DNA from: Albidovulum sp.
GTDB taxonomy: Bacteria > Pseudomonadota > Alphaproteobacteria > Rhodobacterales > Rhodobacteraceae
Reading direction: 5' to 3'
Length of the DNA: 64,000 nt
Assembly (NCBI GenBank): GCA_037046705.1
Contig: JBAOHB010000014.1
Span: forward strand, 3,754-67,753
Shown here: positions 15,890-40,030 of the stretch, piece after piece
Numbering within the stretch: position 1 is the stretch's first letter
Layout: every line of letters begins with the position of its first letter
Position numbers and translations under genes: made by a program
Notes under the pieces: generated by a model
The model's input: the letters and a program-made list of their open reading frames with translations, nothing else
The model's database searches: none
What the model was told of the DNA's origin: nothing

Positions 15890-16015
15890 CTCTGACTGTT
15901 ACCTTGGACGCGCGGCAAGAGCGCCACGTTGTGACCATGTTCTTGAAAGGCATAAGTTCTTGACCACCATCATCTCTATCGCGACGATGGTGCCGAAGAT
16001 CGGCGGGAGACTCGG

Positions 16016-16765: not shown

Positions 16766-16815
16766 CAACTCAATCTCGCACTTTTTCCGAAAAATGAATT
16801 GAAGGGATTGGCACT

Positions 16816-17274: not shown

Positions 17275-17358
17275 GATCGCTGCCGACCCACAGTTTCGAA
17301 TAGTGTGCGAGCCAGGATGCGTTTTTTCTGGCACGTCTCTGGCCGTGGTGATTTCCTT

Positions 17359-22384: not shown

Positions 22385-22609
22385 TCAGAGCCCCTTCACC
22401 GTCGTCACGCGGACCTGCCGGACGATCCGACGCCCCTCGGCCGCGGGGATCTCGCGATCCAGCGCCTCGACGGCCCGGTCGATCTCGGCGACGCTGCGGT
22501 AGTCCACGGTCTTGCCGTCATAGCTGACCCGCGCCACGCCCGAGGACCGCTGCGCGGTCAGCGCGTCGCGGCGGGCGCGGAGACTCTGCGGCCGTGGCCA
22601 TTGGGTCAC
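22385..22609 (-). CDS. gpW-like head-tail joining protein
   Basis: 74-aa ORF between terL and the portal gene. Contains RDALTAQRSSGVARVSYDGKTVDYRSVAEIDRAVEALDREI. Confidence 0.75.
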   Translation of the reverse strand: MTQWPRPQSLRARRDALTAQRSSGVARVSYDGKTVDYRSVAEIDRAVEALDREIPAAEGRRIVRQVRVTTVKGL

Positions 22610-24601
22610 CTCATGTAGCTCGAGCGCACCGTGCGTCGGCGCGGCGTCGTTCGGGTTGGGGCGGATGGCGCCGTCGCTGGACCGGGCTCAGACCCGTCCT
22701 GCTTCGCCACCCCGAGCTGCGCTTCCAGATCGGCCCACCGCGCCTCGGGCCAGCGATCCGCCCCGAGGATCCACGCGGCCGCGCGGGCATAGACGCGCGT
22801 ATCCAGCGCCTCGTTGCGTTCGCGCATCTTCTGCCATTCGAGCCGCGCGAAGCCACGCCTGGTCCGGACCGTCACCAGCTGCTCGGCGGTCAGCTGCTTC
22901 AGCCATTCACCGTCCGCCCAGTCTGGCAGGTGGATCGTCCCGGGCGGGCACAGTGCGCCCACCGCCTGTTCCTCCCGCGTCGGCCGGTCCTGCCGCAGGA
23001 AGCGATAGGTCTCGGCCTTGAAGGTCGAGGTGGCCACGGTCCAGAGCCGGGCGCCGCGCCGCAGCCGCTTGCCCGCGACGGTGGCGTCGACATAGGTCGG
23101 CCCGGTCACCGGGCTCGTCCGCGTGAACCCCTCGACGCCCTTCACCGGCGCGACTTGCGCGAACCCCACCTGGCGCGACCAGGCATAGACCGCGCTGGTC
23201 TCGTAGCCCGTGTCGATCGCGAGCCGGGCCATCGCCATCGGCTGACCCGAGGCATGCGTCCATGTCCGCCCGAGCAGCTCCGTCAGTTGCTGCCAGCAGG
23301 CCGGATCGCCGGGGCCGCCCTCGAGTACGAGGTGGTCGACGAGCCAGCTTTCCAGACCACGGCCCCAGGCCCAGACGTCTACCTCGATCCGGTCCTTCTG
23401 GACGTCGGCGCCCGCGGTCAGGAAGAGCCCGCGCTCGGGCACCGTTCCCGCCGGCCATGCCTCGCGCCGGTCCGCCAGCCGTTGCCAGTCGGGCAACTCG
23501 CCGGTTTCCATCCAGGTCTCGCCAAGTATGGTGTTCCGGAACGCCCGCATCGCCTCGTCGCTGCCCCGTGCCGCCTCATGCGCCCGCGCGATCCGCTGCC
23601 AGTCTGAGCCACCCCACTGGCGAGTAGAGCGCCGAGAGGTGGTAGCCGACCGTCGCCGGATCGGTGGTCGTTGCCGTTGCGCGCCATTCGCCGCGCTCGA
23701 GCATCCGCGTCTTGTGGTGCTCCGCGATGGGCCGCTCGCAGCCCTCGCAGTGATATTCCGCCGTCTCGGGGCGGCCTTTCTGCCAGCGCAGTCGGTCGAA
23801 CTTCAGCCACTGCATTGCGCCGCAATGCGGGCACGGCACGAAGAACCGCCGCTGGTCGCTGGCCTCGTACTCGCGCTCGATGCGCGACAGCCCCCGGATG
23901 GTGGGCGTCGAGACCAGCAGCACCTTGCGCCGGTGGGCGAAGGTCAGCGAGCGCGCCTCGGCCAGCGTGACCGGGTCGCCTTCCTCGTCGGCCGAGGCTG
24001 GATAAGCATCGACCTCGTCGAGGAAGATGTAGCGCGCCGGGGTCGATCGAAGCCCCACCGCCGAGTTCGCCCCGGTCATGATCAGGATGCCGCCCGCGAA
24101 CTCCTTCGACAGCATCGTGTTGCCCGCATCGCGGGATCGCGCCGGCTTCACCCTCTCCCGCAGATCGGGGCTCTCGTCGATCAGCGGGTCGATCCGCTGG
24201 CGCGAGTTGCGTTTCGCCAGCTCCACCGTCGGCTGGACCGCGAGCATCGGCCCCGGCGCCTGATGGATGATGAAGCCGATCCAGTTATTGCCGGCCTCGG
24301 TCGCACCGACCTGCGCGGCCTTCATGAACACGATCCGCTGCGTGGGATCGCCGGGCGAGAGCCGGTCCATGATCTCGCGCATGTAGGGCGTGCGCGCGGT
24401 CCGGTACTGCCCGGGTTCGGCCGACGCGCGCGAGGCGAGTTTCCGGTGGCGGTCGGCCCAACTCGAGACGGTCAGGTCCGGGTCGGGGCGCAGGCCCCGC
24501 GACCAGGCGCGGAGCAGCGCGGCGGCGCCGTCGAACCCGACGAGATCGTCAGGCAAGCCCGGGTCGGATCTCCGCGAGGCTGTCGAGCTGGGCGCGGACA
24601 T
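22606..24601 (-). CDS. Terminase large subunit (lambda gpA-like), frame break near 23590
   Basis: N-terminal ORF 23576..24601 and C-terminal ORF 22606..23550. The junction reads SPVGWL/(S)DWQRIARAHEAARGSDEAMRAFRNTILGETW if one base is removed. Confidence 0.8.
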
Positions 24602-26198: not shown

Positions 26199-26500
26199 TC
26201 TCGTCTGATCGCAGGACCGAAATCGCGCCGATAAGGCAGTCGACGACGAACATGGCCGCCGCTCGCATCGAGCGGCGGTCTTGTCGTTCTGACCCGGATC
26301 GCCTCAAAGAGCCGCCGCAAGGCGAAGGACCGCGCGATGCTCACCACCGTGAACACCGCCCCCATCTTGAGGTTCTGCGCCAGCGTCGTGTGCAGCCCGA
26401 AGACCGGGAAGAGCAGGATCTGCGTCACGACCGCGACGCCATAGCCCACCGCCACGTTGGCGACGGCCTCGACCAGCGACATGGCCCGGCTCTGCTTCAT
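26180..26500 (-). CDS. Small membrane protein; 3' end uncertain
   Basis: MKQSRAMSLVEAVANVAVGYGVAVVTQILLFPVFGLHTTLAQNLKMGAVFTVVSIARSFALRRLFE. The tail after residue ~80 looks non-protein-like. Confidence 0.5.
   Translation of the reverse strand: MKQSRAMSLVEAVANVAVGYGVAVVTQILLFPVFGLHTTLAQNLKMGAVFTVVSIARSFALRRLFEAIRVRTTRPPLDASGGHVRRRLPYRRDFGPAIRRDQASKR
26256..26290 (+). terminator. Possible intrinsic terminator hairpin
   Basis: Perfect 10-bp stem ccgccgctcg/cgagcggcgg (26256-26265 / 26269-26278) with a 3-nt loop, followed by the T-rich tcttgtcgttct. It lies 58 nt after the DUF3489 stop. Confidence 0.35.
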
Positions 26501-26509
26501 TGCGCCCCC

Positions 26510-27532
26510 TCATCCATCGGCCAGCAGTTCAGCTGCGAGAGTTCGGAGCGCATGCGCCGCGACCAGCGGGACCACTCCGTTGCCACAGAGCCGAAGCCGG
26601 TCCACCCGGTGGGCCAGCCCATCAGCGCCTCGACGAACAGCGGGTTCAAGGTTCGGCGCGGATCGGAGGTATCGCTCCCAGCCATCGGCGTCACCAGGAC
26701 CTGGCGGCCAAGCAGCCCGTTCACCGGCGTGTTCGCGAGGCTCGTCGCCCCGTCCTTGTGATCCCGCGCCGTCGGCGTCATCCACATTCGCGTCGCATCG
26801 CAGAGCGTCGTCCCGTCGTTGCGCGGGCGCGCCGTCTCGCTGCGATTGCTGGTCCGGTTCCGCGTCCCCTTGCTGTCGTCGGCCAGCGGCGTCGGCCAGA
26901 GGCGCATCATCTCCGTCCGGTTGCCTCCGCTCGAGCGCGTCCCCGAGCAGGCGCGCGGGGTCGGCCAGGTGGTCGCGCTCGCGGTGGGCGAGGATGAAGA
27001 GCCGTTCGCGCCGGTGGGGTGCGCCGACTTCCGCCGCCGTGAAGAGGCCCGCCGCAAGGCGGTAGCCCATGCCGACCAGCCCTCCGGCGACTTCGGGGAA
27101 GCCGAGGCGGAGATGATGGGCGACGTTCTCGAGGAAGACGAAGGGCGGCTCGACCTCTCCAATGATCCGAGCAACATGCGGCCAGAGGTGCCGCGGGTCG
27201 TCCGCACCCCGACGCTTTCCCGCGACGGAGAACGGCTGACACGGATAGCCCGCAGTGACGATGTCCACCGCGCCGCGCCACGGACGGCCGTCGAAGGTTG
27301 CAACGTCGTCCCAGACAGGCGCCCGATCCAGGGCCGTGTCTTCCATCCGCGCCACGAGGATGGCCGCGGCGTAGGCGTCCCGCTCGACATGACCCACAGT
27401 GCGATATCCGGGGAGTGCGAGGTGCAGCCCGAGGTCGAGCCCGCCGGCGCCGGAGCAGAGCGAGAGGCCGAACAGGCACACGTCGTCGGCTCCGGCAGGC
27501 AGGCCGGAGGAAGCTAGAGCCACGCCATCCAC
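26510..27532 (-). CDS. DNA cytosine-5 methyltransferase
   Basis: Motif I LCSGAGGLDLG, motif IV GYPCQPFS, ENV (FLENV), RRERLF, and C-terminal CGNGVVP. Confidence 0.85.
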   Translation of the reverse strand: MDGVALASSGLPAGADDVCLFGLSLCSGAGGLDLGLHLALPGYRTVGHVERDAYAAAILVARMEDTALDRAPVWDDVATFDGRPWRGAVDIVTAGYPCQPFSVAGKRRGADDPRHLWPHVARIIGEVEPPFVFLENVAHHLRLGFPEVAGGLVGMGYRLAAGLFTAAEVGAPHRRERLFILAHRERDHLADPARLLGDALERRQPDGDDAPLADAAGRRQQGDAEPDQQSQRDGAPAQRRDDALRCDANVDDADGAGSQGRGDEPREHAGERAAWPPGPGDADGWERYLRSAPNLEPAVRRGADGLAHRVDRLRLCGNGVVPLVAAHALRTLAAELLADG

Positions 27533-27536
27533 GTCG

Positions 27537-28976
27537 TCAGGCCGCGTGGGCCCCCTCGGCCGCGGCCGGGGTCTCGCCCAGCCGCTTGGCCTTCACCTCG
27601 GCGAAGGTCCGGCCGTCGCCATCGAGGATCGCGTCGCGGCCGGTCTCGGCCTGCCAGCGTTCGACGGCGACATCGATATAGGCGGGGCTGATCTCCATCG
27701 CGAAGACGCGGCGGCCGTTTGCCTCGCCCGCCATGATTTGTGAGCCGGAGCCCGAGAACGGCTCGTAGCAGAGCCCGCCGCGGGCGACGTGCTGGCGCAT
27801 CGGGATGCCGAAGGCGTCGAGCGGTTTCGGCGTCGGATGGTCCGGGCGCTCGTCCTTCGCGAAGGACGGCATTTCCCAGGTCGAAGGCAGCGTTTGCTCG
27901 GCCACCTTCGGCGGCCGGTTCGGGCGGCGCCAGCCCATGAAACAGGGCTCGTGCTTCCAGAGGTAATGCGAACGGGTGAGCACCCCGCGGTCCTTCACCC
28001 AGATGATCTGCTGGTGAACGAAGGCGCCCGCCTTCTCCCAGCAAGCCTCGAGCATCGCCTGGCGGCGGGAGGCGTGCCAGCAGTACCAGGCAGCGTCTTC
28101 GGCGATGGCCCCGGCGACCGCCGCCGCGATGAAGCCGTCGTAGAGTTCCGCGCCCTGGCTGCTGTCGTCCCAAGTGACGCCGTAGGACTGCGACCAGTCC
28201 TTGATCCGGGTCGGGTGGTTCGAGCCGTCGTAGTCGACGAGATACGGCGGGTCGGTCGCGAACAGCACGGCGCGCTCGCCGTTCATCAGCCGGCGGACGT
28301 CGTCGTGCGAGGTCGAGTTGCCGCAGAGCAGCCGGTGGTCGCCAAGGATCCAAAGATCGCCGGTGCGCGAGGCCGGGTTACGCGGCGGTTCGGGGATGGT
28401 CACCGAAGGCACCGAGCCCCCGGCGCCACCTTCCTCTTCACCGTCGTCTTCCGCGACGTAGGCCAGCAGCTTGTCCAGCTCGCCCTCCGAGAAGCCGACC
28501 AGCGACAGATCGTAGTCGTCCGCCAGCAGGTCCTGCAGCTCGGCCGAGAGAAGCGCCTCGTCCCAGCTGCCGAGTTCCGTGAGCTTGTTGTCCGCGATGC
28601 GATAGGCCCGGCACTGCGCCTCGGTCAGGTGGCCCAGCACGATTACCGGCGCCTCGGTCAGCCCGAGCTGCGTCGCGGCCAGCACCCGGCCATGGCCCGC
28701 GATCAGCTCCCCGTCCTCGGCGACGAGGCAGGGCACGGTCCAGCCGAACTCGGCCATGCTTGCGGCGATCTTTGCGACCTGGTCGGGCCCGTGCACCTTC
28801 GCGTTCTTCGCGTAGGGTTGGAGGCGCGCAAGCGGCCACATCTCGATCCGCTCGGGGGCGAAGGCGAGGTTCATGCAGGTTCCTGTCGATGATAGGTCGG
28901 CATCCGCCGGACTGGACTCCGGAGCGATGGGGTCCGCCGGCTTCCGGCTGGACTTCGGCATCCGCGGGGTGTCCAC
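27537..28976 (-). CDS. ParB-like nuclease domain fused to an N6/N4 DNA methyltransferase
   Basis: ParB-N block LQPYAKNAKVHGPDQVAKIAASMAEFGW..IAGHGR and the catalytic DPPY motif (LFATDPPYLVDYDG). Confidence 0.8.
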   Translation of the reverse strand: MDTPRMPKSSRKPADPIAPESSPADADLSSTGTCMNLAFAPERIEMWPLARLQPYAKNAKVHGPDQVAKIAASMAEFGWTVPCLVAEDGELIAGHGRVLAATQLGLTEAPVIVLGHLTEAQCRAYRIADNKLTELGSWDEALLSAELQDLLADDYDLSLVGFSEGELDKLLAYVAEDDGEEEGGAGGSVPSVTIPEPPRNPASRTGDLWILGDHRLLCGNSTSHDDVRRLMNGERAVLFATDPPYLVDYDGSNHPTRIKDWSQSYGVTWDDSSQGAELYDGFIAAAVAGAIAEDAAWYCWHASRRQAMLEACWEKAGAFVHQQIIWVKDRGVLTRSHYLWKHEPCFMGWRRPNRPPKVAEQTLPSTWEMPSFAKDERPDHPTPKPLDAFGIPMRQHVARGGLCYEPFSGSGSQIMAGEANGRRVFAMEISPAYIDVAVERWQAETGRDAILDGDGRTFAEVKAKRLGETPAAAEGAHAA

Positions 28977-29752: not shown

Positions 29753-29945
29753 TGGCGGCCTCCGGGTCGTTCGCCCGAGGCCCATACAGCTTCTCCCCGA
29801 GCTGACGCACCAGCTCGCGCTCCGGCCAGGTCAGCCGGTCGTCGTCGACGGAGACGGCGAGTAGACCCTCGTCATGCCAGCCATCGCGCTTCACCTGGTC
29901 CGGATCCCGGCGCGTGCCGCCGTAGCCTTTCGGATACCACCTCAT
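29745..29945 (-). CDS. Hypothetical protein (66 aa)
   Basis: ORF coupled to its neighbours by overlapping start/stop codons. Confidence 0.4.
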   Translation of the reverse strand: MRWYPKGYGGTRRDPDQVKRDGWHDEGLLAVSVDDDRLTWPERELVRQLGEKLYGPRANDPEAANG

Positions 29946-30463
29946 CCCAGGCCCCCGTTCGTCTCGATCGCCCAGTGCAGAATGGCGATGGCGTCGGCCT
30001 CATTGTCGTCTGCGGGTGAGAACCCTCGTGCTCGCGCCGCGGCGATCATCGCCTCCTTGGGCGCGTTGCCCTTGCCGGTGGCGTGGCGCTTGATTGTGCC
30101 GACCGGAACACCCTCGTACGGAACGCCGCGCAGCTCGGCCCAAGAAGTCAGGGTTGCCATCAGCCCGCCGTAGATGTGGGCCGCGTCGGTGCCAGCGTGG
30201 CGGCGCACCTCCTCGAACCAGATCGCGGCGATGGGCCCGGACAGACGGTCGAGTTCGGTCAGCCAGTTGGTGAAACGGAGGTATCGCATGCCGCCGCCGT
30301 CGAAGCGTCCGGGACGAAAGCTGACCGTACCGCTGGTGATCAGTCCGTCATGGCTGCGAAGCGCCCAGCCGGTCGTGGTGCCGAGATCGAGGGCGAGGAT
30401 ACAGGACCGGGAGATCGCGCCCGTTTCGGGGCTCAGGTCCTGCGCGGGGATCGGTGTGTTCAT
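29942..30463 (-). CDS. RuvC-like Holliday junction resolvase
   Basis: ILALDLGTTTGWAL (first catalytic Asp) and C-terminal DDNEADAIAILHW. Confidence 0.7.
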   Translation of the reverse strand: MNTPIPAQDLSPETGAISRSCILALDLGTTTGWALRSHDGLITSGTVSFRPGRFDGGGMRYLRFTNWLTELDRLSGPIAAIWFEEVRRHAGTDAAHIYGGLMATLTSWAELRGVPYEGVPVGTIKRHATGKGNAPKEAMIAAARARGFSPADDNEADAIAILHWAIETNGGLG

Positions 30464-30592: not shown

Positions 30593-30889
30593 GTCCCAAC
30601 CTCCGAGCGCGTGGTCCCAACCTTCGAGGGGGTTGGGACAAGCCTTTATTGTTTTACTCCAATGGCTTGAACGGATGCGGTCCCAACCTCGGTTTCCCCA
30701 ACGGGGGTCCTTCTCTTTTCGTATAGAAAAACATGTTCCCGACCTTTTCCGTTCTCCCACATGAATGTGTAGCAAAAGGTTGGGACCACAAGGCGAGGTT
30801 GGGGACACCGTTGTTTTTGAACGGCTTTTCGTGTCCCCAACCTCCTCGGGAGGTTGGGACAGGGTTGGGACTACTGGGGAGGTTGGGAC
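30593..30889. repeat. Iteron-like array: 10 copies of GGTTGGGAC / GTCCCAACC around an AT-rich core (putative phage origin or operator cluster)
   Basis: GTCCCAACC at 30593, 30614, 30680 and 30833 (the last with an extra C). GGTTGGGAC at 30631, 30778, 30797 (extra G), 30852, 30863 and 30881. 30797-30808 and 30831-30842 form a 12-bp inverted repeat. Confidence 0.7.
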
Positions 30890-31162
30890 AGACGATCCGG
30901 CAGCCATGTAATCCACGGTGCCTTGAAGCCGGAAGCAAGCCGGTGTTCGACCAAGACGTCACTGGACTGAGTGCAGGTGTATCGGCGGACTGCTTGCTGC
31001 CGTGTCGACCTCGGCTGTCAGGGAGAAAGCCAAATCCGGTATGCGAACACATCGCCGCTTGTTACTATATCTGGGAGTGCGAAGAGGGTCTCTCCTCAAC
31101 GCGTTGTAGCCTTAGGGTTTGGAAATGCGAGTATTGGCGTGCCAATCGAAGAAGTTGCCGTG

Positions 31163-34100
31163 ATGATCGACGAGGTGCCCTCACCGTCGGAGTTCATGCG
31201 AATGCGGCGTCCAGAGCAGTTCTCGGATAGCTCTGAACGGTCGCTTTATCGCTTGTCGCGCGACGTGCTGGAACAACGACTGGAGACGCTCACAGCACGA
31301 AACGACATGCAGGCGTTTGAGCGGTTCGCGAGGGCTCTCTGCGAGCGCTTTGTCTGTCCGTTCCTGAAGCCGGCAACGGGTCCGGAAGGTGGGGGAGATG
31401 GCAAGGTCGATACTGAGAGCATCAGGACCGCCGAGGAGGTCGTCGAGCGCCACTTCGAGGGCCGCGCTGACCGCGGCAACGAGAGGTGGGGTTTTGCTTT
31501 CAGTACCAAGAGGGATTGGAAGGCAAAGGCACGCGCTGATGTGGCTGGGATGGTCGGAACTCGGCGAGGCTACAAGACGGCATTCTTCGTCACATCTCGT
31601 TACGCGCGATCAAAAGATCGCTCTGAGTGCAAGATGCGCTGGCGGCCGAGCATGGCATCTTGGTGGAAATTCTCGACCGGAATTGGATTGTAGACAACGT
31701 CATTGAAAAGGATGCCCGCGATCTCGCCTATATCCATCTCGGCATTGGCGAAAAGGTCGAGGAATCGAAGATTGGGCCGCGCGACAGGGAGCGCCGGGAA
31801 AGGTTGGCGTCGTTGGATCGTGACCTCGAAGCTCCCGACCGGGCAGCGGAGGCGCCGCTAGCCGTAGTGAAATGCGCGCTGGACGCCGCAATCCTGTCCC
31901 GAGAACTTGAGCGACCACGATATGAGACTGACGGCCGCTTCGAGCGAGCCATACGGCTCGCCGACCGCCATGGAGCGGACCGACACAGCCTCGCGGCGCG
32001 CTACGAGAAGCTTTGGACGGCACTGCACTGGTTCGACGATATTGGGGCCGTCCGCGATGGCTACCGCGACATCGAGGAGCGCGCCCTCGCTCTCAATCAC
32101 GCATCCGCAATCGAGAGGGCCACGAACCTGCTTTTCGGGCTGTCAGGACCGTTTGCCCAAGCCACCTCAGACGGTGTGGATGTCGACGTACAAGCGGCAT
32201 GGGAACGTCTGGAGGCCAGTCTTGAGTCGATGTGGAATGACGAGACTTCTGCCCAACAACAGGCTGACCGCCCGGACGCTTCTGTTGATGCGTGGCATTA
32301 TGGTGGACCTGGCAGCCAGCGACCTGAGTTCGATCGAGACACGACTATCGCAGATCATCGAAATCATCGACGCCGCCCGCGGATTGATGGAGTATGACTT
32401 TGATCGCTTGGAGCAGCTCGTGGAAATGCTCGGCGAGACGCTCGGAGGAAACGCAACGTTGTCCCGCGTCGTCGACCATCTTGGCGACGCGCTTCAACAA
32501 CGGCGCGGTGAGACGGCACGTGGTATGCTTTTCTTGCGCCGCGCTCGGCAACTTGACATCGAACGGGATCGGTTCGAGGTTATTCGCCGCCTTGGCACCG
32601 TTGTCGAATGCCTGACAAAGGAAGAGCACCTCGATGAGTTGGTGGAAGCGGCATACCTGCTCGCTGTAGCCTATCGCGGGGCCGGGCTACCATGGGCGGC
32701 TAGAGCCACCGCTTTGTTCGGTCTATCAGCAATCGTGATACAAGCCGAAAAGTCGTCGGTGCCCCCGAGTGAGATACTTCCCACATTCCTCCTGTTGGGA
32801 TGGATCGATCTGGAACTTGGTCTTGTCGCGGAGTTACTGGACGTCGTCGCAGTCTCACGCGGCATCCTTGGATCGTTGCCCTTCGACGAAGATTCGAAGA
32901 ATAGAGCACGCGAAACACTTCAGACTTTCGACTTCTCACTCGGAGGCAAATTCCTGAATGCGCGGGAGGCGGATCTGTCAGCCTTCCAGAGCTTGCCCGA
33001 TGTCCTCATGGCAATCGAGTTACCGGCAGCATCCACTTGCCTCTTATATGCTCTTGGCCACGAAGACGAAGCTCTCGGCCCGGCGATCGAAGATCGCGCA
33101 ACAAATCTTGAAATGCTTGCTCAGCTTTCGGCGCAACCCGCTTGCGCCCTGCCTCGCCATGGCCTGATCGGAGAATTCGACGGTCCATTCGCCTTCACAA
33201 CGGATGTCCTCGGGCTGCAGCTGACGATCTCCGGCGACAAGGGAGCGAGATGCGCCTTGGTTGCGCAACTCCTGATCTCAATGGCTGAAACGCTTCTGGC
33301 GACCGGTTTCGAAGCCGGCTTCGCCGCACATCGCGAGCGCTACGAGGTGCGTGTAGTGTTGAGCGATGTGATTGCGGCTCCTTTCCCGAAGTTTGACGAG
33401 ACCGCGTCGCAGGACCTGCTCGAATGGCCAGCCGATTGGAATCCGGCTGAGCCAAGGACAGCATCGGATGCGCGAGATGCATTGCTGACGACAGTCGCGT
33501 ACATCATTGGTCAGACCTGCATCTTGAAGGACGGGACCGAGTCGCTTGAGACGCTCCTCGACAGCGATACGGCAATCAGCCGGATCATGACTTCGCTCGG
33601 ATTGGGTGTCAGCATGAGCCGGGTATTGAAGGAGACGCCGGTCACGCCTGCCAGCATCGCGGATCATTTTCGTGCTGATCCCCCACGGCCTTTTCCTTTT
33701 CGAGCGGTTCTTCCATTGCCCGAAGTTTCCGCGCCAGAAGGACCGACGTCAGGTGACACGACGGATCAGCCATTCGGGGCAATACGCAGCCATCGAGAAC
33801 TGAAGACCCGATCTCTCATTGACGTCCCGCTCTGGAACGCCGCGAAATGGAGGGGTGTCGCGGTGATGAAGCTGTCACTTGTCGGTCTGCCCATTCTGGC
33901 TTTGATGTTCGAGAATTCCGATGCCGGTTATCGCATCTTCGAAGCCTGGCGGGAGAGGCTGGGGTCGGAAGATGAAGCCGGTGAACTCCTGGTGACTATC
34001 GTGACGGACCTGCCGGGTCGTCCGAGATCGCACTACGCCGTCATTCTGACGACCAACTTGGAAGCGCGGCCGGTGATCGGCGAGATGTTTTTCGTGGTCG

Positions 34101-34330
34101 CAAGATCACTGATCATGGAACCGAGTTCGGGAGAGAACCTGCAGCTATTCCTCCGTGATTGGGGGCGCAACGGAGCTTTCCTTATCGGCGGTGCTTCAAT
34201 GCCCCAAGATGTCAGGCCACCTGAACTGCGGAAGGAAACCACGATCCTCAAGAGGCACCTGCGGGTGGCGCGGCACGAGGATCTGGAAGAGTACGAAGTC
34301 GGTTTTCTTGGCGGCTCGAAGGGAGTCTAG
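31163..34330 (+). CDS. Large (~1,055 aa if merged) protein: Mrr-like PD-(D/E)xK nuclease N-terminus plus helical/unknown C-terminal region. Read as 3 overlapping ORFs in the track.
   Basis: ORFs 30971..31693, 31627..32397 and 31907..34330 follow each other in three frames. Protein-like sequence hands over at ~31625 and ~32265. The N-terminal motif is FERFARALCERFVCPFLKPATGPEGGGDGKVD .. WGFAFSTK. Confidence 0.55.
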
Positions 34331-34353
34331 ATCGTCCCATGGTTTAGGGTCAG

Positions 34354-36950
34354 TCAAGTCCGATCCTGCCCCCTCCGATACCGCCACTCCCGCGGCGCCT
34401 CACGGCCGCCCTCGTCGCGGCGTCGGTACCGCTCCCAGCCATTTGCCTTGAGGTAGGCCGAGACGCGCATCTGGTCGCCTCGGGTCCAACGGGCGGGTTC
34501 GAGCCCGATGGCCTCCTCGAGGATCTCGCCGACCGACACATCTCTCAGCGGCTCCGGGCGCGGCACGCTCTCGGTGCGGGAGTTGTCGTAGTCGGGGAAG
34601 CCATCGGAGACGGTGCGGATCTCGTGCGTCAGCCAGTGTTCGATCAGGTCGTCCCAGGCGTCCGACTGGTAGCGGCGGTCCTGTTCCTCGCGGGCTTCCT
34701 CCAGCAGCGCCGGGTCGTCGATCCACCAGATTGCGCCGGCGCGGAAGCGGTGGACGGCCTCCGCCCAGAGCTGGTCCCGGTCACGCGCGAGCGCAGCGAT
34801 GTCTATGGCGCCGCAGCGCAACGGCCAGAAACGACGATTGCCGGTCTCGTCGCGAAGGTAGGTGTCGGGGTTCACGGTGCCGGCAAACACGCACTGTCGG
34901 GGCACCTCGACGGTGTAGCGGCCATAGGGCGGACGGAAGCGGTCGGTGGTGCGGGTCAGGAAGGCCTTGATGCGCGAGACTTCGGCGCGACCAATGGCAT
35001 CGAGTTCGGCGATCTCCACGATCCAGACGCCCTGCATGTGCAGCGCGGCGTCCTTCGACCCGAGCTCGGGCAGTTCGTCGGTGAACCATTCCTCACCGGC
35101 CAGCACCTTGATCGCCGTGGACTTGCGCGCGCCCTGCGGCCCCTCGAGGATCAGCATGTGGTCGGCCTTCACGCCGGGCCGGTAGATGCGGGCGATGGCC
35201 GAGATCAGCCAGAGCGCGCCGATGGTGTGGTTGAACGCCGTGGGCTCGGCGCCGAGACAGGCGCTCGTCCACGTCTCGATCCGGGGCGTGCCGTCCCATT
35301 TCAGGGTGTCGAGCCAGTCGCGGACGGGATGGATGCGCACTCGCGGGCGACGGCGCCGACAGCGCGGCTCACGACCACCGGGGCGACGTTGATGCCGCGG
35401 AGTTGCAGCCATTCGGCGGTGCGGATGTCGTCGGCGTCCTCCCAGGGGCGCGGGAGGGGGGCGATTCCGGCGTCCCACGGCAGCGGCTGGCGCACCACGA
35501 TCTCCTGCCCGAACTCATCGAAGGCGAGCACGCCGGCAAAGGCCGGATCGGAGGTCAGTGCGACGATGACGTTAGCTTCGTTTCGCTCGGGCGCACCCGC
35601 GAGGTCGAGCCGCAGGCGCCTGAACCAGGAAGGCTTCGGGATCGGCGCGTTTGGATCGCCGGTGGCGTTTACGCGGCGGCGGAGCTCGGCCAGCTGCTGC
35701 GTCAGGACCGACATGCCGATCCCGGTCGCGGACTTGATCCGCGCGATGACCTGCCGTTCGGGCAGCGGGTCGAGCCTTGCCAACGCGATGCGCCCGAGCA
35801 GCGTGGACAGGGCTTCGAACTCGGGCGGATTGGTCAGCGCCTCGGCAGCGGCGATCAGGGTCGCGGGATCGTCTGCGGAGGCGACGACGGGTGTGACCGT
35901 TTCAGGGTCGACCGTATCTCCGGCCTGCGGCTCGGCTGCGGTATCTGTCTCGTGCGCGTAATCCTCGGCGCGAGCGCCGCGCTGCAGATCGTCGTTGAAG
36001 TCGTCGCCGTGGAGCGGCGCGACGATCTCGTTCGGGATGTCGGCCCTGTTCAAACGGTCCGAGAGCGTTGCGGCCGCCTGGCGGCCGGCGTCTCCGGCAT
36101 CGGCGTAGATGGTGACGCGCCGGGCACCCTCGGGCCACTGGAACCGCGCCAGACCGTCGGCCGACAGCGCCGCCCAGACCGACATGCCGAAGAGCGCGTG
36201 CGCGGCGAGCGCCGTCTCGATCCCCTCGGCGATGCCGATTTGACCATCCTCCGGCATCGGTAACAGCCGGACCACGGCATCCTTCACGCTGCCCAGCATC
36301 TTCTTGCCCGGAGGCGCCTTGGCGCTGCCGTCGTCGAGCAGGAAGGTGCGATGGATACCCGGCGCGCGCTCCCCGCCCGGCAGCCGCAGGATCGCGATGA
36401 GGCCGGGCCAGCCACGGCAGCTGTCGAAGTCCGGCAAGTCGGGATGGAACAACAAGTCGGACGATCCGGGATCCGACAGCCCGCGCGCGCGCAGATAGGT
36501 CTCGCCCAGCGTGCCCGCGAGTGGAACGGCCCCGTCGACGAGACGTGCGATCTCGGAAGAATGATCCGGGCGCGCGCGCAAGGGCGCCGCCGGCGCAGGC
36601 CGCGGCGCTGGATGGACCATACCCGCGAGCCGCGCCGCCTCGTCGAAGAGCGCGCCATCGCAAAGGCCGGTCGCCTGGGCGATCAGGTCGATGGGACCGG
36701 CCCGCTCGCCGGTGGCGTAGTCGAAGCCCCAGCCGGCATAGGGCCCGTCGAGATGGATGGTGCAGGAGCCCTCCTTCCGTGGCGGGCGCCCGGAGAGGTC
36801 GGCGCAGCGCAAGGAACGACGGTCGCGCGCCAGCCGGGCCTCCGGGAAGAGCCCCGGCAGCCAGTCGGCGGCGGTGCAGGCCAGCCGCTCCTTCACCGCC
36901 GCGAGATCGTGCCGGGTCTTCGGGACCGCGATGTCGTTGAGGTCGATCAT
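34354..36950 (-). CDS. Toprim-domain primase fused to a VirE-family P-loop NTPase, frame break near 35340
   Basis: ORF 35301..37073 (start MIDLNDIAV at 36950; GIAEGIETALAA..IYADAGDAG Toprim). It continues in ORF 34354..35478 (RIHPVRDWLDTLKWDG, Walker A GPQGARKST). Confidence 0.8.
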
Positions 36951-36958
36951 CGCGCCCC

Positions 36959-38278
36959 TCAGGCCAGCAGGACGAGCCCGCGCTCGGCGCGGGTGATCGC
37001 GGTGTAGAGCCAGCGGCGCCGGTCGATCTCGCTGCGGCCCAGCCCGTCGTCCCAGACGATCACGTTCTCCCACTGCGACCCCTGCGCCTTGTGAGCGGTG
37101 ATCGCCCAGCCGAAGGTCGCCTCGGTCAACAGGCGCTTCTCCTTGTAGTCGCGGTCATGACGCTTGTCGTCGTAGGCGACGTGGTCCTCGAAATGCCCCT
37201 TGTAGATGCGCAGCCGGCCCGGACGCCCGTCCTCATAGGGCTCGCCGATGTGGCGCCCGTCCTCGTCGTGGACGACGGCGGAGAAGTAAAGGCTGCCCTC
37301 GTCGACGATGTCCTCGAGCGTCACGAACATGCCGTTGATCAGCCCCAGATCGTTCTGGTTCTTGAGACAGATGATCTTCTCGGCCGGCCCCGTGGGTAGC
37401 CAGGTCCCGCCGAGACCGGCGGCCGCGCGCATGGCGTTGTTGATCTGCAGCCGCGTGGCGTTCAGCCCGCAAATCAGCTGGCCGCCGCGCAGCGCCTGTT
37501 CCGGCGTGATGTCGCCCTTGCGGAGCTTCGCGACATGATCGTCGTAGACGCCGAAGCCGATGGGCCGCCCCTCCCGCGCCATGGTGGCGAGGCGGATGAT
37601 CGCGCTCTCGGCCGCCTGGCGGTGGATCTCGGTCAGCATCACGTCCGGCTCGTCGCGAGTGAAGGCGCCTTCGCCCCGGATCGGCGGCAACTGGCCCGGA
37701 TCTCCGAGGACGAGGATCGGCTTGCCGAAGCTCATCAGGTCGCGCGCCATTTCCTCGCCGACCATCGACACCTCGTCGAGCACGATCAGCCGGGCGTCGG
37801 CCGCGTCGCTCTGCGGGTTCAGGGCGAAGCGCGGGTGCTTCATCGCCGAGAGCCCCTGGCGCATCGCCTCGATCGCGGCATCGGCCGTGGTGCGCGCGAA
37901 CCCGGTGAGACGGAGGGCGTCGCGTTCGGCCAGCGCGATCTTTCGGGCGGCCTCCTCGATCTCCTCCTCGGTCGACTCGATCACCGAGTAGATCAGGCTG
38001 TGAATGGTGCGCGCGGGCGTGCCCTTGCGGGTCAGCACCAGCGCGGCCTTGCCGGTGAAGGTGGCGGTGACCACGCCGGGCACGCATCGGCCGTCCCGCG
38101 CGCTGCGGTGGGGCGAGAGGCCGAGCTCGTCGAGCGCGAACTTCAGGACGGTGCTCTTGCCCGACCCGGCATAGCCGAAGAGGCGGAATACCTGCTGCTG
38201 CTCGGTTCGGGTCTCGAACCACTCCTTGATCTCGCGGATCGCGGCGGCCTGGGTGGCGGATGGGGTGAACTCGGTCAT
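36959..38278 (-). CDS. RecD/Dda-like SF1 DNA helicase
   Basis: MTEFTPSATQAAAIREI, Walker A GYAGSGKST, LIVLDEVSMV, LVLGDPGQLPPI, and C-terminal AITAHKAQGSQWENVIV. Confidence 0.85.
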   Translation of the reverse strand: MTEFTPSATQAAAIREIKEWFETRTEQQQVFRLFGYAGSGKSTVLKFALDELGLSPHRSARDGRCVPGVVTATFTGKAALVLTRKGTPARTIHSLIYSVIESTEEEIEEAARKIALAERDALRLTGFARTTADAAIEAMRQGLSAMKHPRFALNPQSDAADARLIVLDEVSMVGEEMARDLMSFGKPILVLGDPGQLPPIRGEGAFTRDEPDVMLTEIHRQAAESAIIRLATMAREGRPIGFGVYDDHVAKLRKGDITPEQALRGGQLICGLNATRLQINNAMRAAAGLGGTWLPTGPAEKIICLKNQNDLGLINGMFVTLEDIVDEGSLYFSAVVHDEDGRHIGEPYEDGRPGRLRIYKGHFEDHVAYDDKRHDRDYKEKRLLTEATFGWAITAHKAQGSQWENVIVWDDGLGRSEIDRRRWLYTAITRAERGLVLLA

Positions 38279-39024
38279 GGCTGGGGCATCTCCACTGCGT
38301 AATCCTTGACGATCCCACCGCGGGTTGGATCGCCCACCTCGCACGGACGGACGAAGACCCGGCGCCCGTCGGCGAGCTGCCGCCAGTGACCGCGTCGGAT
38401 ATGCCAGCGCGGGCTGGCGTGACTGCCGCCCTGCGGCGGTGTCGCTGCCTGAAGGCGAGCGGGATCGATGGCGACCTGACGCCAGACCCAACCGCGTACG
38501 CCCTCACGGGACAGGCGGGACCGTTTCGCGAGCGACACCTTGCGGTCGCGGATGTCCGGGGTCGCGCCGAGAATGGTCAGTGCGCGCCACACGATGCCGG
38601 CGGCGACTTCGCCGTGACCGCGGACCGTCTCGTCGCTCCGCTCGGCCGGGTTGCCCTCGATCTCCGCCTTGCCGTCCGGATGCATCCAGATCCGCACCAG
38701 GCAATCCGTCCAGCCGCGCGGCGCCCGCTGGCGCATGAGGAACGTGGCCTCGACGATGTCGCCGTCGGCGCGGGCGCAGACGATCAGGCCCGAGGGAGAC
38801 GCGCGCTGCTCGCGCACCTCGAAGATCACGGACGAATGCGGCAGCCGGAGCGGACCGGTAAAGACCCGGGTCATCGCGCGGTCGACGATTTCGCCATCGA
38901 AGGCGGCCTGATCGTCGAAGAAATAGATCGGCGCGAACTCCGCCGCTCCGAGCAGGTCGGAGCACCAGAACCGCTCGCGATGCGCGCGCACGATCCGCTT
39001 GAGCTCATACGCATCGGGGATCAT
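38275..39024 (-). CDS. Hypothetical phage protein (249 aa)
   Basis: Coupled ORF with no motif recognised. Confidence 0.5.
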   Translation of the reverse strand: MIPDAYELKRIVRAHRERFWCSDLLGAAEFAPIYFFDDQAAFDGEIVDRAMTRVFTGPLRLPHSSVIFEVREQRASPSGLIVCARADGDIVEATFLMRQRAPRGWTDCLVRIWMHPDGKAEIEGNPAERSDETVRGHGEVAAGIVWRALTILGATPDIRDRKVSLAKRSRLSREGVRGWVWRQVAIDPARLQAATPPQGGSHASPRWHIRRGHWRQLADGRRVFVRPCEVGDPTRGGIVKDYAVEMPQP

Positions 39025-39818
39025 GGCCGCTCACTCCAGCATCTTTTCGCCCAGGCGCAGGGGGCGTGCCACTTGCCGGCCGCCATGCCGCCGCGGCAGA
39101 GGACTGCGGTGGGTTCGGCGGCGGCGCGCGGCAGCCATTCCGCGGCCTCGGAGGCCCGCACCACGGCGACGGCGCGATCCGACATCTCCTGCGCGAGATG
39201 CGCGTCGAAGGGCACGAGCTCCGCGTGCAGCTCCATCGTGTCGCGGTTCAGCGCGGTGAAGAGCGCCGGGGCGGGCAGATCCATGTAGGCCTGATAGAGC
39301 GCGATCTGGGCGGCATAGACCGGCCGCGCGAGGCTGACGCCTCGCTTGACGACGTCCTTCCAGCTGGCCGCCCCGAGCGCCTTGTTCTCCCAGAGCGCGG
39401 GATAGTCCATCGCGACCGGGCCCGAGACGAAACAGCCGTCGATATGGCCCTTGAAGCGCCTGCCGAGCGCTTCGAACCCGAACTGGCGGCCGTCGGGGCG
39501 CTCGGTGCGCAGGTCGAAGCCAGCGATCCGGAACCAGTTCGCGACGATGTCCTCGGCCCTATGGCCCGCCTCGAAGATGCGCAGCGTGCGCGGCGCGAAC
39601 TCCTGGCCCTCGTCCTTCGGCACCGCGAGGAAGTCGTACTGGATCTGGCGCAGGCAGTCGCGGCCGAGACCCGAGGAACTGACATAGGTGCGCGGACGCT
39701 CGGCGCGGTGGCGCGCGGTCAGCGCCGTGTCGATGGCGACGGACACGGCTTCCGCGATGGGCGGACGCGGCGCGTCGGCGCCGTAGAGGAAGCCCGAGCC
39801 ATGGTTCAGGTCGATCAT
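39021..39818 (-). CDS. PD-(D/E)xK (Cas4/RecB-like) exonuclease
   Basis: GHIDG .. LWENKAL (D..ExK), plus an N-terminal Cys (GRDCLRQ) and a C-terminal Cys cluster (LCRGGMAAGKWHAPCAWAKRCW). Confidence 0.65.
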   Translation of the reverse strand: MIDLNHGSGFLYGADAPRPPIAEAVSVAIDTALTARHRAERPRTYVSSSGLGRDCLRQIQYDFLAVPKDEGQEFAPRTLRIFEAGHRAEDIVANWFRIAGFDLRTERPDGRQFGFEALGRRFKGHIDGCFVSGPVAMDYPALWENKALGAASWKDVVKRGVSLARPVYAAQIALYQAYMDLPAPALFTALNRDTMELHAELVPFDAHLAQEMSDRAVAVVRASEAAEWLPRAAAEPTAVLCRGGMAAGKWHAPCAWAKRCWSERP

Positions 39819-40030
39819 CGCTCGCGCTCCCAGAACCCGCCGGCCTGCGCGATGCAGGTCAGCTTGTGGAACTGCGCGTCCGTCAGCCGGGCGCTCTCGC
39901 CGAAGCGCGCGAGCTTCTCGCGGAGGCTGTCGCAGAACTCGATCTCGAAGTCGGTGACGGCGTTCCCGGTGGCCGCCTCGAGCAGAGGCTTCCAGCTGCT
40001 GGACGCGGTGTCGTCGTTCAGGTCGATCAT
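39815..40030 (-). CDS. Hypothetical protein (71 aa)
   Basis: Coupled small ORF. Confidence 0.4.
   Translation of the reverse strand: MIDLNDDTASSSWKPLLEAATGNAVTDFEIEFCDSLREKLARFGESARLTDAQFHKLTCIAQAGGFWERER

What the first reader, a model, noticed from the sequence alone, without database searches (positions are those of the whole stretch)
30971..34330. Reverse-oriented, lower-GC ~3.2-kb gene with an Mrr-like nuclease N-terminus and a long uncharacterised C-terminus: candidate undescribed prophage-encoded defence protein
Everything around this locus (RuvC-like gene, primase, helicase) is on the minus strand. This locus is on the plus strand and is visibly less GC-rich: by hand count, 35 G+C in 32401-32460 versus 42 in 15661-15720. 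The track shows three ORFs in three frames (30971..31693, 31627..32397, 31907..34330). In each case the protein-like sequence stops about where the next frame becomes protein-like (~31625 and ~32265), and the overlapping tails look like out-of-frame junk. I therefore read it as one ~1,055-aa protein with two frame breaks. A three-gene operon with overlaps is the alternative. The N-terminus carries FERFARALCERFVCPFLKPATGPEGGGDGKVD followed by WGFAFSTK. That matches the G-x-GDG-x-D ... (E/Q/S)-x-K layout of Mrr-type PD-(D/E)xK nucleases. The next ~350 aa look helical and repeat-like, and I recognise nothing in the last ~500 aa. A nuclease effector fused to a large sensor-like body, placed as a moron between the phage origin-like iterons and the replication genes, is the architecture of many single-gene abortive-infection or defence proteins. 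I cannot place it in any named system.
Basis: partly seen in the sequence, partly recalled or inferred. Interest (0 to 1): 0.8.

Follow-up and report, generated by a model that had tools for sequence, protein, structure and literature searches.

The report
Frameshifted nuclease–TPR gene in prophage defence hotspot
The three overlapping ORFs are one ~1,060-residue gene, broken here by two single-base indels, from a widespread uncharacterised family that fills a cargo slot where related prophages carry known anti-phage systems, so it is a good candidate for a new single-gene phage-defence protein.

Summary
The plus-strand, lower-GC island (0.59 vs 0.69) and the three ORFs are real, but they use two frames, not three. 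More than 100 homologues are single proteins of about 1,045–1,090 aa. Four near-identical elements (93% nt), including Plastorhodobacter and Paracoccus isolates, carry an intact 1,063-aa gene at the same place. The window, a MAG of Albidovulum sp., differs by a 1-nt deletion at 31628 and a 1-nt insertion at 32247. It has six more private 1-nt indels nearby, including in the terminase and the primase. The copy is therefore either mis-assembled or decaying.

The family has no hit in Pfam, NCBIfam, PADLOC or PHROGs. AlphaFold (pLDDT 90) gives three parts: a conserved N-terminal α/β domain, a ~450-aa TPR-like solenoid, and a ~380-aa C-terminal α/β region with no PDB fold match. The N-terminal motifs run in the same order as E. 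coli Mrr's, but the similarity is not statistically significant.

In related prophages the same primase/iteron junction is empty or holds Lamassu, Iet, RosmerTA, a GHKL ATPase or thymidine-hypermodification genes. No neighbour is conserved across 78 genomes.

Best reading: a single-protein sensor–nuclease defence gene. This is inferred; nothing has been tested experimentally.

The parts
30892..34370 (.). Variable cargo slot of the prophage. It lies between the iteron/origin-like region and the 3' end of the primase-VapE gene and is lower in GC (0.587).
   Evidence: Relatives with other cargo (L089, L091, L092, L099) align with the window up to ~30890 and again from ~34370. GC.
31139..34330 (+). 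The single gene (3,192 nt, the same length as the intact orthologues), read in two frames because of two 1-nt indels. The start is GTG 31139, as in P0001, or ATG 31163, as called by NCBI.
   Evidence: >100 full-length single-protein homologues, the best 95% identical. DNA alignment to intact L001, L008, L009 and L010. NCBI calls MEI2806835.1 and MEI2806836.1.
31628..31628 (+). Frameshift 1: a window-specific 1-nt deletion (relatives read CTGAGCTGC or CTGAACTGC; the window reads CTGAG-TGC). The original frame then stops at 31691-31693.
32247..32247 (+). Frameshift 2: a window-specific 1-nt insertion that returns the reading to the original frame.
31139..31767 (+). N-terminal α/β domain (P0001 residues 1-210). 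It is the most conserved part (56% mean pairwise identity) and the putative restriction-endonuclease-like (Mrr-like) nuclease.
   Evidence: AF2 secondary structure. Invariant E61, D87, K89, D91, S122, K130, D134; near-invariant E93, K124. Collinear with E. coli Mrr motifs but not significant. Conservation.
31388..31411 (+). GGGDGKVD motif (residues 84-91). D87 and D91 align with D199 and D203 of E. coli Mrr (GDGGID).
31493..31510 (+). FAFSTK motif (residues 119-124). S122-x-K124 aligns with Q219-A-K221 of E. coli Mrr.
31777..33133 (+). TPR-like α-helical solenoid (residues 214-665).
   Evidence: The AF2 model is all-helical here with pLDDT mostly above 90. Foldseek's best PDB matches are the LGN/Pins TPR domains (prob 1.0, TM on target up to 0.55, E 3e-3 to 1e-2). 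BFVD hits are also TPR proteins.
33176..34288 (+). C-terminal α/β region (residues 680-1050, two sub-domains joined by a poorly conserved linker). It is the least conserved part (22-39% identity) and has no known fold match; I read it as the putative sensor.
   Evidence: Domain model pLDDT 87.6. Foldseek against PDB finds nothing at E<1e-3 and TM<=0.22. Conservation.
30593..30889 (.). Iteron cluster: 8 exact GGTTGGGAC/GTCCCAACC copies in both orientations, plus degenerate copies.
   Evidence: no exact copy anywhere else in the 64 kb
29942..30463 (-). RuvC-like resolvase gene, the left anchor of the hotspot.
   Evidence: PHROG 159, E=1.8e-30. Used to find 80 related viral contigs.
34354..37073 (-). 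Primase (Toprim/DUF7146) fused to VapE-like helicase, the right anchor of the hotspot. It is one 906-aa ORF in relatives and is split in the window by a 1-nt deletion at 35340.

Best explanation
Window 31139-34330 is a single accessory ('moron') gene of a siphovirus-like Rhodobacterales prophage. It encodes a ~1,063-aa protein of a widespread, unnamed family. In this MAG the gene is interrupted by a -1 and a +1 single-base indel, so the copy is either mis-assembled or inactivated.

The intact protein has three parts: a conserved N-terminal restriction-endonuclease-like domain, a TPR-like solenoid, and a divergent C-terminal α/β region with no known fold match.

I propose that it is a stand-alone anti-phage defence protein of the sensor-effector type. 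The solenoid and C-terminal region would bind a product of an infecting phage, most likely a protein. That binding would release or assemble the N-terminal nuclease, which would then cut DNA and stop phage replication, possibly at the cost of the cell.

Shown: the single-gene status, the indels, the domain layout, the absence from four family libraries, the solitary and variable genomic context, and the hotspot location shared with known defence systems. Inferred: the nuclease activity, the sensing role of the C-terminal two-thirds, and the defence function itself.
For: (1) Single gene. 156 homologues at E<=1e-3; the 120 listed are nearly all 1,040-1,160 aa and cover 95-100% of the merged translation.
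(2) Intact orthologues. The same prophage at 93% nt identity carries an intact gene at the same place in L001, Plastorhodobacter daqingensis, Paracoccus albicereus and a MAG. The only length differences in the window are the indels at 31628 and 32247.
(3) Accessory cargo. None of 80 IMG/VR relatives of this prophage (RuvC 79-97% identical) has the gene. In the 27 that share the primase, the primase-RuvC gap is 431-511 bp (empty) in 14 and 1.6-6.8 kb in 13.
(4) What fills the slot elsewhere. LmuA (1e-167) + LmuB (3e-199); IetA (2e-138) + IetS (2e-266); RmrA (4e-173); a GHKL ATPase; aGPT-Pplase3 + a thymidylate-synthase-like gene; and two unknowns. These cargos are also low in GC.
(5) Genomic context. 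475 of 185,579 species representatives carry a relative. No neighbour is conserved in 78 loci. Neighbours include AbiEii, type I/III R-M, ArdA, RES-Xre, PtuA/GajA/AriA-like ATPases, integrases and transposases. P0003 sits between a helicase+PLD pair and an nSTAND3 protein next to an integrase. The P. aeruginosa copy is in an integrase-bounded islet. 13 plasmids carry it.
(6) Structure. AF2 pLDDT 90.3, pTM 0.84; TPR fold hits; no fold hit for the C-terminal region.
(7) Effector/sensor conservation gradient: N-terminal domain 56%, TPR 41%, C-terminal parts 22-39% identity.
(8) Nuclease-like signature. E61, D87, K89, D91, S122, K130 and D134 are invariant in 115 sequences. Five motifs run in the same order as in E. 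coli Mrr. UniRef names two orthologues 'Restriction endonuclease type IV Mrr domain-containing protein'.
Against: - No experiment has been done.
- The nuclease assignment is not statistically supported. Pfam Mrr_cat is not detected at E<=10 in any of 22+9 members. hhalign against an Mrr profile gives E=0.1 and probability below 1%. PDB sequence profiles find nothing. I could not run a fold search on the isolated N-terminal domain.
- The acidic or Q residue of the (D/E/Q)xK motif is an invariant Ser, which is unusual for an active PD-(D/E)xK site.
- The hotspot also carries counter-defence cargo (thymidine hypermodification), so location alone does not prove defence.
- Only 4 of 2.9 M viral contigs carry a relative.
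- The window copy is broken, and so are other metagenomic copies.
- Only PADLOC v2.0.0 (2023) was available, so the family may have been named in a later catalogue.
Confidence: 0.6

Rival explanations
1. Three genuinely separate, overlapping genes forming a small operon.
For: Three ORFs with start codons exist. NCBI annotated two of them as separate proteins.
Against: All homologues are single ~1,060-aa proteins. ORF boundaries coincide with two window-private 1-nt indels. The tails of ORF1 and ORF2 and the head of ORF3 have no homologues, and codon-position GC follows the merged reading.
Confidence: 0.02
2. A modification-dependent (type IV) restriction enzyme. The Mrr-like N-terminal domain would cut DNA directly, and the TPR and C-terminal region would read a modified base or recruit the enzyme. 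In that case no phage protein is sensed and there is no abortive infection.
For: The motif layout is collinear with E. coli Mrr. UniRef gives two orthologues an Mrr name. The hotspot in a relative holds thymidine-hypermodification genes, which shows that DNA-modification conflicts occur in these phages.
Against: There is no Mrr_N winged helix and no known modified-base reader (SRA, EVE, YTH) among the fold or family hits. More than 800 residues of repeat plus globular domains is far more than known type IV enzymes use. The same prophage encodes two DNA methyltransferases, which could create a self-targeting problem.
Confidence: 0.15
3. An accessory gene of mobile elements whose role is not host defence, for example counter-defence, competition between mobile elements, or an addiction toxin.
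For: It is found on prophages, plasmids and integrase-bounded islets. The hotspot also carries counter-defence cargo. Neighbours include ArdA and toxin-antitoxin genes. Several metagenomic copies are broken at different places, as might be expected of a costly or toxic gene.
Against: Three of the identifiable alternative cargos are bona fide defence systems. There is no conserved antitoxin-like partner. The large sensor-like architecture and the conservation gradient fit immune receptors better than they fit anti-defence proteins, which are usually small (own knowledge).
Confidence: 0.15
4. The window copy is a real pseudogene in a decaying (cryptic) prophage, rather than an intact gene spoiled by assembly errors.
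For: There are eight window-private 1-nt indels in about 18 kb. They hit the terminase (23603), the primase (35340), this gene (31628, 32247) and others. Most are not in homopolymers.
Against: The source is a MAG. The three isolate or MAG relatives have no coding indels. Every event is exactly 1 nt. Window-branch substitutions are too few to show relaxed selection (5 non-synonymous, 6 synonymous). A test for a methylation-motif error signature at AGCT was negative.
Confidence: 0.45

Closest known systems
Avs (AVAST) STAND NTPases with N-terminal Mrr-like/REase effectors (e.g. Avs4; Gao et al. 2020/2022, as cited in PMC13601566, PMC13581612, PMC9122126)
   Same: Single polypeptide of about 1,000-1,600 aa. 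N-terminal nuclease-type effector and a C-terminal TPR-like repeat sensor. Carried in variable islands and prophage or satellite hotspots.
   Different: There is no STAND NTPase module: no Walker A in the invariant columns, and no AAA/NACHT/nSTAND hit in Pfam or Avs/NLR hit in PADLOC. An extra ~380-aa α/β C-terminal region has no fold match. Activation therefore cannot be by NTP-dependent oligomerisation in the Avs manner.
Dsr1/Dsr2 (defence-associated sirtuins) and other NTPase-less effector-sensor proteins (PMC13581612)
   Same: A large single protein with an N-terminal effector and a long helical-repeat/globular sensor, without an NTPase. Dsr1 senses a phage structural protein.
   Different: The effector is nuclease-like, not SIR2. 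There is no PADLOC Dsr hit. The sensor fold is unrelated as far as tested.
Upx (PMC13099982, PMC13601566)
   Same: A single-protein defence system with a PD-(D/E)xK nuclease and a large sensor that binds phage terminase. No NTPase.
   Different: The domain order is opposite: in Upx the sensor is N-terminal and the ExK nuclease C-terminal (E1176). No hit to any PADLOC model, the library in which a Upx model would be expected.
E. coli Mrr (type IV restriction endonuclease, Pfam Mrr_cat PF04471)
   Same: The order and spacing of five motifs are similar: FE helix; G-x-GD-x-x-(I/V)D; (Q/S)-x-K-(R/K)-x-W; hydrophobic strand ending in T(T/S); (V/I)-x-(I/L)-(L/V)-D.
   Different: No significant sequence or profile match. 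Ser replaces Gln/Glu in the xK motif. A 15-residue insertion lies between the D and SxK motifs. There is no Mrr_N DNA-binding domain, and the catalytic domain is N-terminal rather than C-terminal.
Phage/satellite defence hotspots (P2 and P4 hotspots, Rousset et al. 2022, PMC9122126)
   Same: A fixed junction between conserved phage genes carries mutually exclusive, lower-GC cargo that includes known defence systems.
   Different: The phage lineage is different (Rhodobacterales siphovirus-like prophage) and so is the junction (origin iterons / primase-VapE). To my knowledge it has not been described; two literature searches found nothing.

Membership tests
Mrr_cat / type IV Mrr restriction endonuclease (PF04471) | Significant match to the Pfam Mrr_cat model or to an Mrr profile | tested here: not met
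   No PF04471 hit at E<=10 in window ORF1, in 22 N-terminal domains or in 9 full-length members. hhalign of the N-terminal profile against an E. coli Mrr profile gives E=0.1-0.18, probability below 1%.
Mrr_cat / type IV Mrr restriction endonuclease (PF04471) | Catalytic D ... (Q/E)xK motif | tested here: inconclusive
   Invariant D87 and D91 align with Mrr D199 and D203 in a forced alignment. The xK motif is S122-x-K124, with Ser invariant.
Mrr_cat / type IV Mrr restriction endonuclease (PF04471) | Restriction-endonuclease-like α-β-β-β-α-β core fold | tested here: inconclusive
   The order of AF2 secondary-structure elements (H57-71, E92-94, E117-122, H127-140, E147-152, H158-172, E175-179) is compatible.
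Mrr_cat / type IV Mrr restriction endonuclease (PF04471) | N-terminal winged-helix DNA-binding domain (Mrr_N) | tested here: not met
   No Mrr_N hit. The nuclease-like domain is itself at the N-terminus.
Avs / STAND NTPase immune receptors | Central STAND NTPase (Walker A/B) | tested here: not met
   No AAA/NACHT/nSTAND Pfam hit and no PADLOC Avs/NLR hit. No GK[ST] among invariant or near-invariant columns. Residues 214-665 model as an all-helical solenoid.
Avs / STAND NTPase immune receptors | C-terminal TPR-like repeat sensor | tested here: met
   Foldseek: LGN/Pins and other TPR domains, prob 1.0, about 400 aligned columns, E 3e-3 to 1e-2. The repeat fold is met, but the sensing role is not shown.
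Upx | C-terminal PD-(D/E)xK nuclease with N-terminal sensor; match to the Upx model | tested here: not met
   Opposite domain order (one search compared with PMC13601566). No PADLOC hit of any kind.
Dsr1/Dsr2 | N-terminal SIR2 domain | tested here: not met
   No SIR2 Pfam hit or PADLOC Dsr hit.
Prophage defence-hotspot cargo | Present or absent at a fixed junction between conserved phage genes, with alternative cargos in relatives | tested here: met
   The junction is empty (431-511 bp) in 14 relatives, holds other cargo of 1.6-6.8 kb in 13, and holds the target gene in 5 elements.
Prophage defence-hotspot cargo | Alternative cargos include known defence systems | tested here: met
   Lamassu, Iet and RosmerTA (RmrA) at E<=1e-138.
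Anti-phage defence system (any) | Protection against phage on expression | not testable with these tools
   Requires cloning an intact orthologue and challenging it with phage.

The most novel reading that the evidence does not exclude
The family is a new class of NTPase-independent, single-chain immune receptor. A TPR solenoid plus a C-terminal domain of previously unseen fold would recognise a conserved phage component and switch on a divergent Ser-x-Lys variant of the restriction-endonuclease fold. Its carriage in a previously undescribed origin/primase hotspot of Rhodobacterales prophages, together with independent disruptions in several metagenomic copies, would point to a costly abortive-infection mode of action.
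Probability: 0.4. Interest if true: 0.72.

Novelty: new variant of a known kind. Interest (0 to 1): 0.6.

Why it matters
If the defence role is confirmed, about 475 bacterial species (Alpha-, Beta- and Gammaproteobacteria and Desulfobacterota, with plasmid copies in Nostoc and Cohnella) would gain an annotated single-gene immune system where there is now only 'hypothetical protein'.

The protein would be another case, alongside Dsr1 and Upx, of phage sensing without a STAND NTPase. It would do so with a sensor domain that has no known fold match and an atypical nuclease active site. That makes it a direct route to a new trigger-recognition mechanism.

Separately, the iteron/primase junction of this prophage lineage is a compact, well-delimited hotspot. 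It already yields two further unknown cargos (572 aa and 376 aa) and could be mined for more systems.

For genome annotation, the locus shows how single-base indels in MAGs split long genes into 'hypothetical' fragments.

Tried and rejected
1. Pfam, PADLOC, NCBIfam and PHROGs on the ORFs and on intact homologues: no hits apart from noise such as Spore_III_AB at E~0.1.
2. PDB sequence-profile searches with the full-length and the N-terminal profiles: nothing meaningful.
3. Foldseek of the full model against PDB and BFVD: only TPR proteins, so the N-terminal fold could not be tested that way.
4. Foldseek of the C-terminal model: only weak local resemblance to part of the M1 aminopeptidases (82-118 columns, E>=3e-3). 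The family has no HExxH motif, so I rejected this as meaningless.
5. A profile search with the N-terminal domain, meant to reach Pfam-annotated distant relatives: the 120 listed hits were all family members or fragments.
6. hhalign against an E. coli Mrr profile: not significant. Only a forced (-mact 0.01) alignment is collinear.
7. Upx as an identity: rejected, because the domain order is opposite.
8. The idea that the window's indels are basecalling errors at a methylated AGCT motif: conserved AGCT sites are not enriched for differences (8 of 53, against 10.7% overall), so I dropped it.
9. Branch-specific N/S counts to date a pseudogene: too few changes.
11. E. coli genomes: no copy at nucleotide level.
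12. Accession-number and keyword literature searches: no description found.
13. Promoter and terminator scans: uninformative.
Full report
**1. The observation**

The three plus-strand ORFs (30971..31693, 31627..32397, 31907..34330) are present as described. The region is clearly lower in GC. Sliding windows give 0.56-0.63 across 30.5-34.3 kb, against 0.67-0.74 on both sides. The quoted peptides are in ORF1.

The neighbours are on the minus strand. They are a RuvC-like resolvase, a DUF6362 protein, a ParB-like/N6_N4 methyltransferase, a Toprim-DUF7146 primase with a VapE-like domain, and an SF1 helicase.

One detail is wrong. ORF1 and ORF3 are in the same frame and only ORF2 is displaced, so the locus uses two frames, not three. 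Codon-position GC shows the coding frame switching at about 31.55-31.62 kb and back at about 32.2-32.25 kb.

**2. One gene, two single-base indels**

I merged the three protein-like segments into a 1,054-aa translation. It matches 156 database proteins. The 120 listed are nearly all 1,040-1,160 aa and cover 95-100% of the query. The best are 95, 80, 76 and 64% identical, and the rest 30-41%.

The DNA of the best hit (L001) aligns to the window at 93% identity, from the RuvC gene to the primase. The same element is present in three other assemblies: Plastorhodobacter daqingensis, Paracoccus albicereus and a Pseudomonadota MAG. All three have an uninterrupted 1,063-codon gene.

A four-way alignment over 30990-40030 shows only three length differences, all private to the window:
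- a 1-nt deletion at 31628;
- a 1-nt insertion at 32247;
- a 1-nt deletion at 35340, in the primase-VapE gene.

The operon alternative is therefore excluded.

The window comes from a MAG of Albidovulum sp., where NCBI annotated the pieces as MEI2806835.1 (176 aa) and MEI2806836.1 (697 aa).

The window carries further private 1-nt indels at 23603 (splitting the large terminase), 25142, 25233, 42012 and 42194. Most are not in homopolymers. A test for an AGCT-motif error signature was negative. Window-branch substitutions are too few (5 non-synonymous, 6 synonymous) to show relaxed selection.

I cannot tell whether this is a mis-assembled intact gene or a decaying prophage. Only the reads can decide. 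Other near-identical metagenomic copies are broken at different positions (around residue 190 and around residue 905), while copies from isolates are intact.

**3. What the protein is**

No member matches any model in Pfam, NCBIfam, PADLOC v2.0.0 or PHROGs. Sequence profiles find no relative in the PDB.

AlphaFold2 with a 115-sequence alignment gives a confident model (pLDDT 90.3, pTM 0.84) with three parts.

(a) Residues 1-210: an α/β domain.

(b) Residues 214-665: an all-helical solenoid. Its best PDB and viral matches are TPR proteins such as LGN/Pins (prob 1.0, about 400 columns, E 3e-3 to 1e-2).

(c) Residues 680-1050: two α/β sub-domains joined by a variable linker. Modelled alone (pLDDT 87.6), this region has no PDB match at E<1e-3 (TM<=0.22). 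There are only short local similarities to part of the M1 aminopeptidases, and the family lacks their zinc motif.

Conservation falls from the N- to the C-terminus: 56% mean pairwise identity for the N-terminal domain, 41% for the solenoid, and 28%, 22% and 39% for the C-terminal parts.

**4. Is the N-terminus an Mrr-type nuclease?**

Across 115 homologues, E61, G81, P82, G84-G86, D87, K89, D91, F119, A120, S122, K130 and D134 are invariant, and E93 and K124 nearly so.

Set against E. coli Mrr, five motifs occur in the same order:
- the FE helix;
- GGGD87-x-K-x-D91 against GD199GGID203;
- S122-x-K124-K-x-W against Q219-A-K221-R-W;
- FFVTS against VFITTS;
- V-x-ILDR against IVLVDG.

The order of AF2 secondary-structure elements is compatible with a restriction-endonuclease core. 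UniRef names two orthologues 'Restriction endonuclease type IV Mrr domain-containing protein'.

None of this is statistically supported here. Pfam Mrr_cat is not detected even at E<=10. Profile-profile comparison gives E=0.1-0.18. The collinear alignment appears only when hhalign is forced to extend. The Ser in place of Glu/Gln is atypical.

I therefore treat 'Mrr-like nuclease' as the leading hypothesis for how the domain works, not as family membership.

**5. Genomic behaviour**

The window is a prophage. It has a tape measure, minor tail protein, major head protein, protease, portal, large terminase, RuvC and a Cas4-like exonuclease.

Using the RuvC-like protein, I retrieved 80 related viral contigs (79-97% identity). 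None encodes the target protein.

In the 27 contigs that also have the primase, the distance from the primase stop to the RuvC start varies:
- 431-511 bp in 14;
- about 1.6 kb in 3;
- 2.0-2.6 kb in 7;
- about 4.4 kb in 2;
- 6.8 kb in 1.

The window and its four close relatives have 3.9 kb.

Relatives with other cargo share sequence with the window up to about 30890 and again from about 34370, which delimits the slot. The inserted segments are lower in GC than their phages.

Their genes are:
- Lamassu LmuA + LmuB (E=1e-167 and 3e-199);
- IetA + IetS (2e-138 and 2e-266);
- RosmerTA RmrA (4e-173) with a small neighbour;
- a 671-aa GHKL ATPase;
- an aGPT-pyrophosphorylase with a thymidylate-synthase-like gene (thymidine hypermodification);
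- two proteins with no informative match.

This junction is thus a hotspot for defence and counter-defence cargo, in the sense described for P2 and P4 (PMC9122126). The target gene is one of its alternative occupants.

Outside this phage, 475 of 185,579 species-representative genomes encode a relative. In 78 loci there is no conserved neighbour. Immediate neighbours include AbiEii, type I and III restriction subunits, ArdA, RES-Xre, PtuA/GajA/AriA-like ATPases, integrases and transposases.

The 76%-identical P0003 lies between a helicase+PLD pair and an nSTAND3 protein, next to an integrase. The P. aeruginosa copy is in a small integrase-bounded islet beside pta-ackA. Thirteen plasmids carry it, always as 'hypothetical protein'. 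It is rare in viral collections: 1 of 50,697 phage records and 4 of 2.9 M IMG/VR contigs. It is absent from E. coli complete genomes at nucleotide level.

**6. Mechanism proposed**

The best-supported model is a stand-alone sensor-effector immune protein.

Shown:
- single-gene status;
- a solitary and variable context;
- the hotspot location shared with known defence systems;
- a three-part architecture with a conserved N-terminal domain carrying invariant acidic and lysine residues, and a progressively more variable repeat and globular C-terminal body.

Inferred:
- the N-terminal domain is a metal-dependent nuclease of the restriction-endonuclease fold;
- the solenoid and C-terminal region bind a phage-derived trigger;
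- binding relieves autoinhibition or drives assembly, leading to DNA cleavage that blocks the phage, possibly by abortive infection.

The closest working analogues are three. Avs proteins with REase/Mrr-like effectors are similar, but here there is no STAND NTPase. Dsr1/Dsr2 are also NTPase-less effector plus helical sensor, but with a SIR2 effector (PMC13581612). Upx is an NTPase-less nuclease plus sensor that recognises terminase, but with the opposite domain order (PMC13601566; PMC13099982).

The rivals are:
- a type IV, modification-dependent restriction enzyme with a novel reader;
- a non-defence mobile-element function (counter-defence, competition, addiction);
- an N-terminal domain that is not catalytic.

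**7. Novelty and verdict**

I found no description of this family in the libraries or in the literature. I could not run the newest DefenseFinder or PADLOC releases.

I class it as a new variant of a known kind: a single-protein nuclease-plus-repeat-sensor immune receptor, here without an NTPase and with a C-terminal domain of no known fold match.

Three points remain open: the Mrr assignment, the defence function, and whether the window copy is intact.

Interest is moderate to high. It is a well-delimited, experimentally tractable candidate, together with a new prophage hotspot. But new candidate defence genes are common, and this particular copy is broken.

Noticed in passing
window 15900-17350: A second low-GC island (GC 0.49-0.55 against 0.70-0.74 on either side). 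It has two plus-strand ORFs (16016-16765, 249 aa; 16816-17274, 152 aa) embedded in the minus-strand head/tail module, so it is probably another moron. Neither ORF has a PDB sequence match.
   Followed up: partly
window 22609-24601 (indel at 23603) and 34354-37073 (indel at 35340): The large terminase and the primase-VapE genes are each split by a window-private 1-nt indel. Further private 1-nt indels lie at 25142, 25233, 42012 and 42194. The three related genomes have none in coding sequence. This points to MAG assembly error or to a decaying prophage.
   Followed up: yes
window 30593-30889: Eight exact copies of GGTTGGGAC/GTCCCAACC in both orientations, plus degenerate copies, all within 300 bp and nowhere else in the 64 kb. 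This is an origin-like iteron array directly abutting the cargo slot. It is conserved in relatives that carry other cargo but replaced in the 'empty-site' relatives.
   Followed up: partly
L089 2204-9001; L096 4654-9001; L098 6745-9001; L092 2668-5295; L109 4537-9001; L099 6699-9001; L100 7409-9001: The same primase/RuvC junction in related IMG/VR prophages holds various cargos: Lamassu, Iet, RosmerTA, a GHKL-ATPase protein, thymidine-hypermodification genes, and two proteins (572 aa, 376 aa) with no informative family match. The last two are further defence candidates.
   Followed up: partly
L018, L024, L028, L032, L033, L037, L087 (e.g. L028:13223-14998): In 8 of 78 genome loci, mostly Gammaproteobacteria, a ~590-aa gene with no Pfam, PADLOC or PHROG match follows the homologue on the same strand, about 73 nt downstream. 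It may be an optional partner.
   Followed up: partly
L002-L007 (e.g. L002 8370-15877): In the loci of the 76%-identical P0003, the homologue's stop overlaps the start of a 112-aa ORF, which is followed by a 1,321-aa nSTAND3 protein. Upstream lie an AAA_11/AAA_12 helicase and a PLD protein (Mokosh-like), and an integrase is nearby. This is a dense defence island.
   Followed up: no
proteins P0274, P0265 and P0261 (cluster of P0001): Other near-identical metagenomic copies of the gene are interrupted at different positions (around residue 190 and around residue 905), whereas copies from cultured isolates are intact. This could be recurrent inactivation of a costly gene, or generic MAG error.
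   Followed up: partly
window 26497-28976: Two adjacent phage DNA methyltransferase genes lie just left of the replication module. One (27537-28976, 479 aa) matches N6_N4_Mtase over residues 239-439 only; the other (26497-27390) matches PHROG 1008. They are relevant if the cargo nuclease turns out to be modification-dependent.
   Followed up: no
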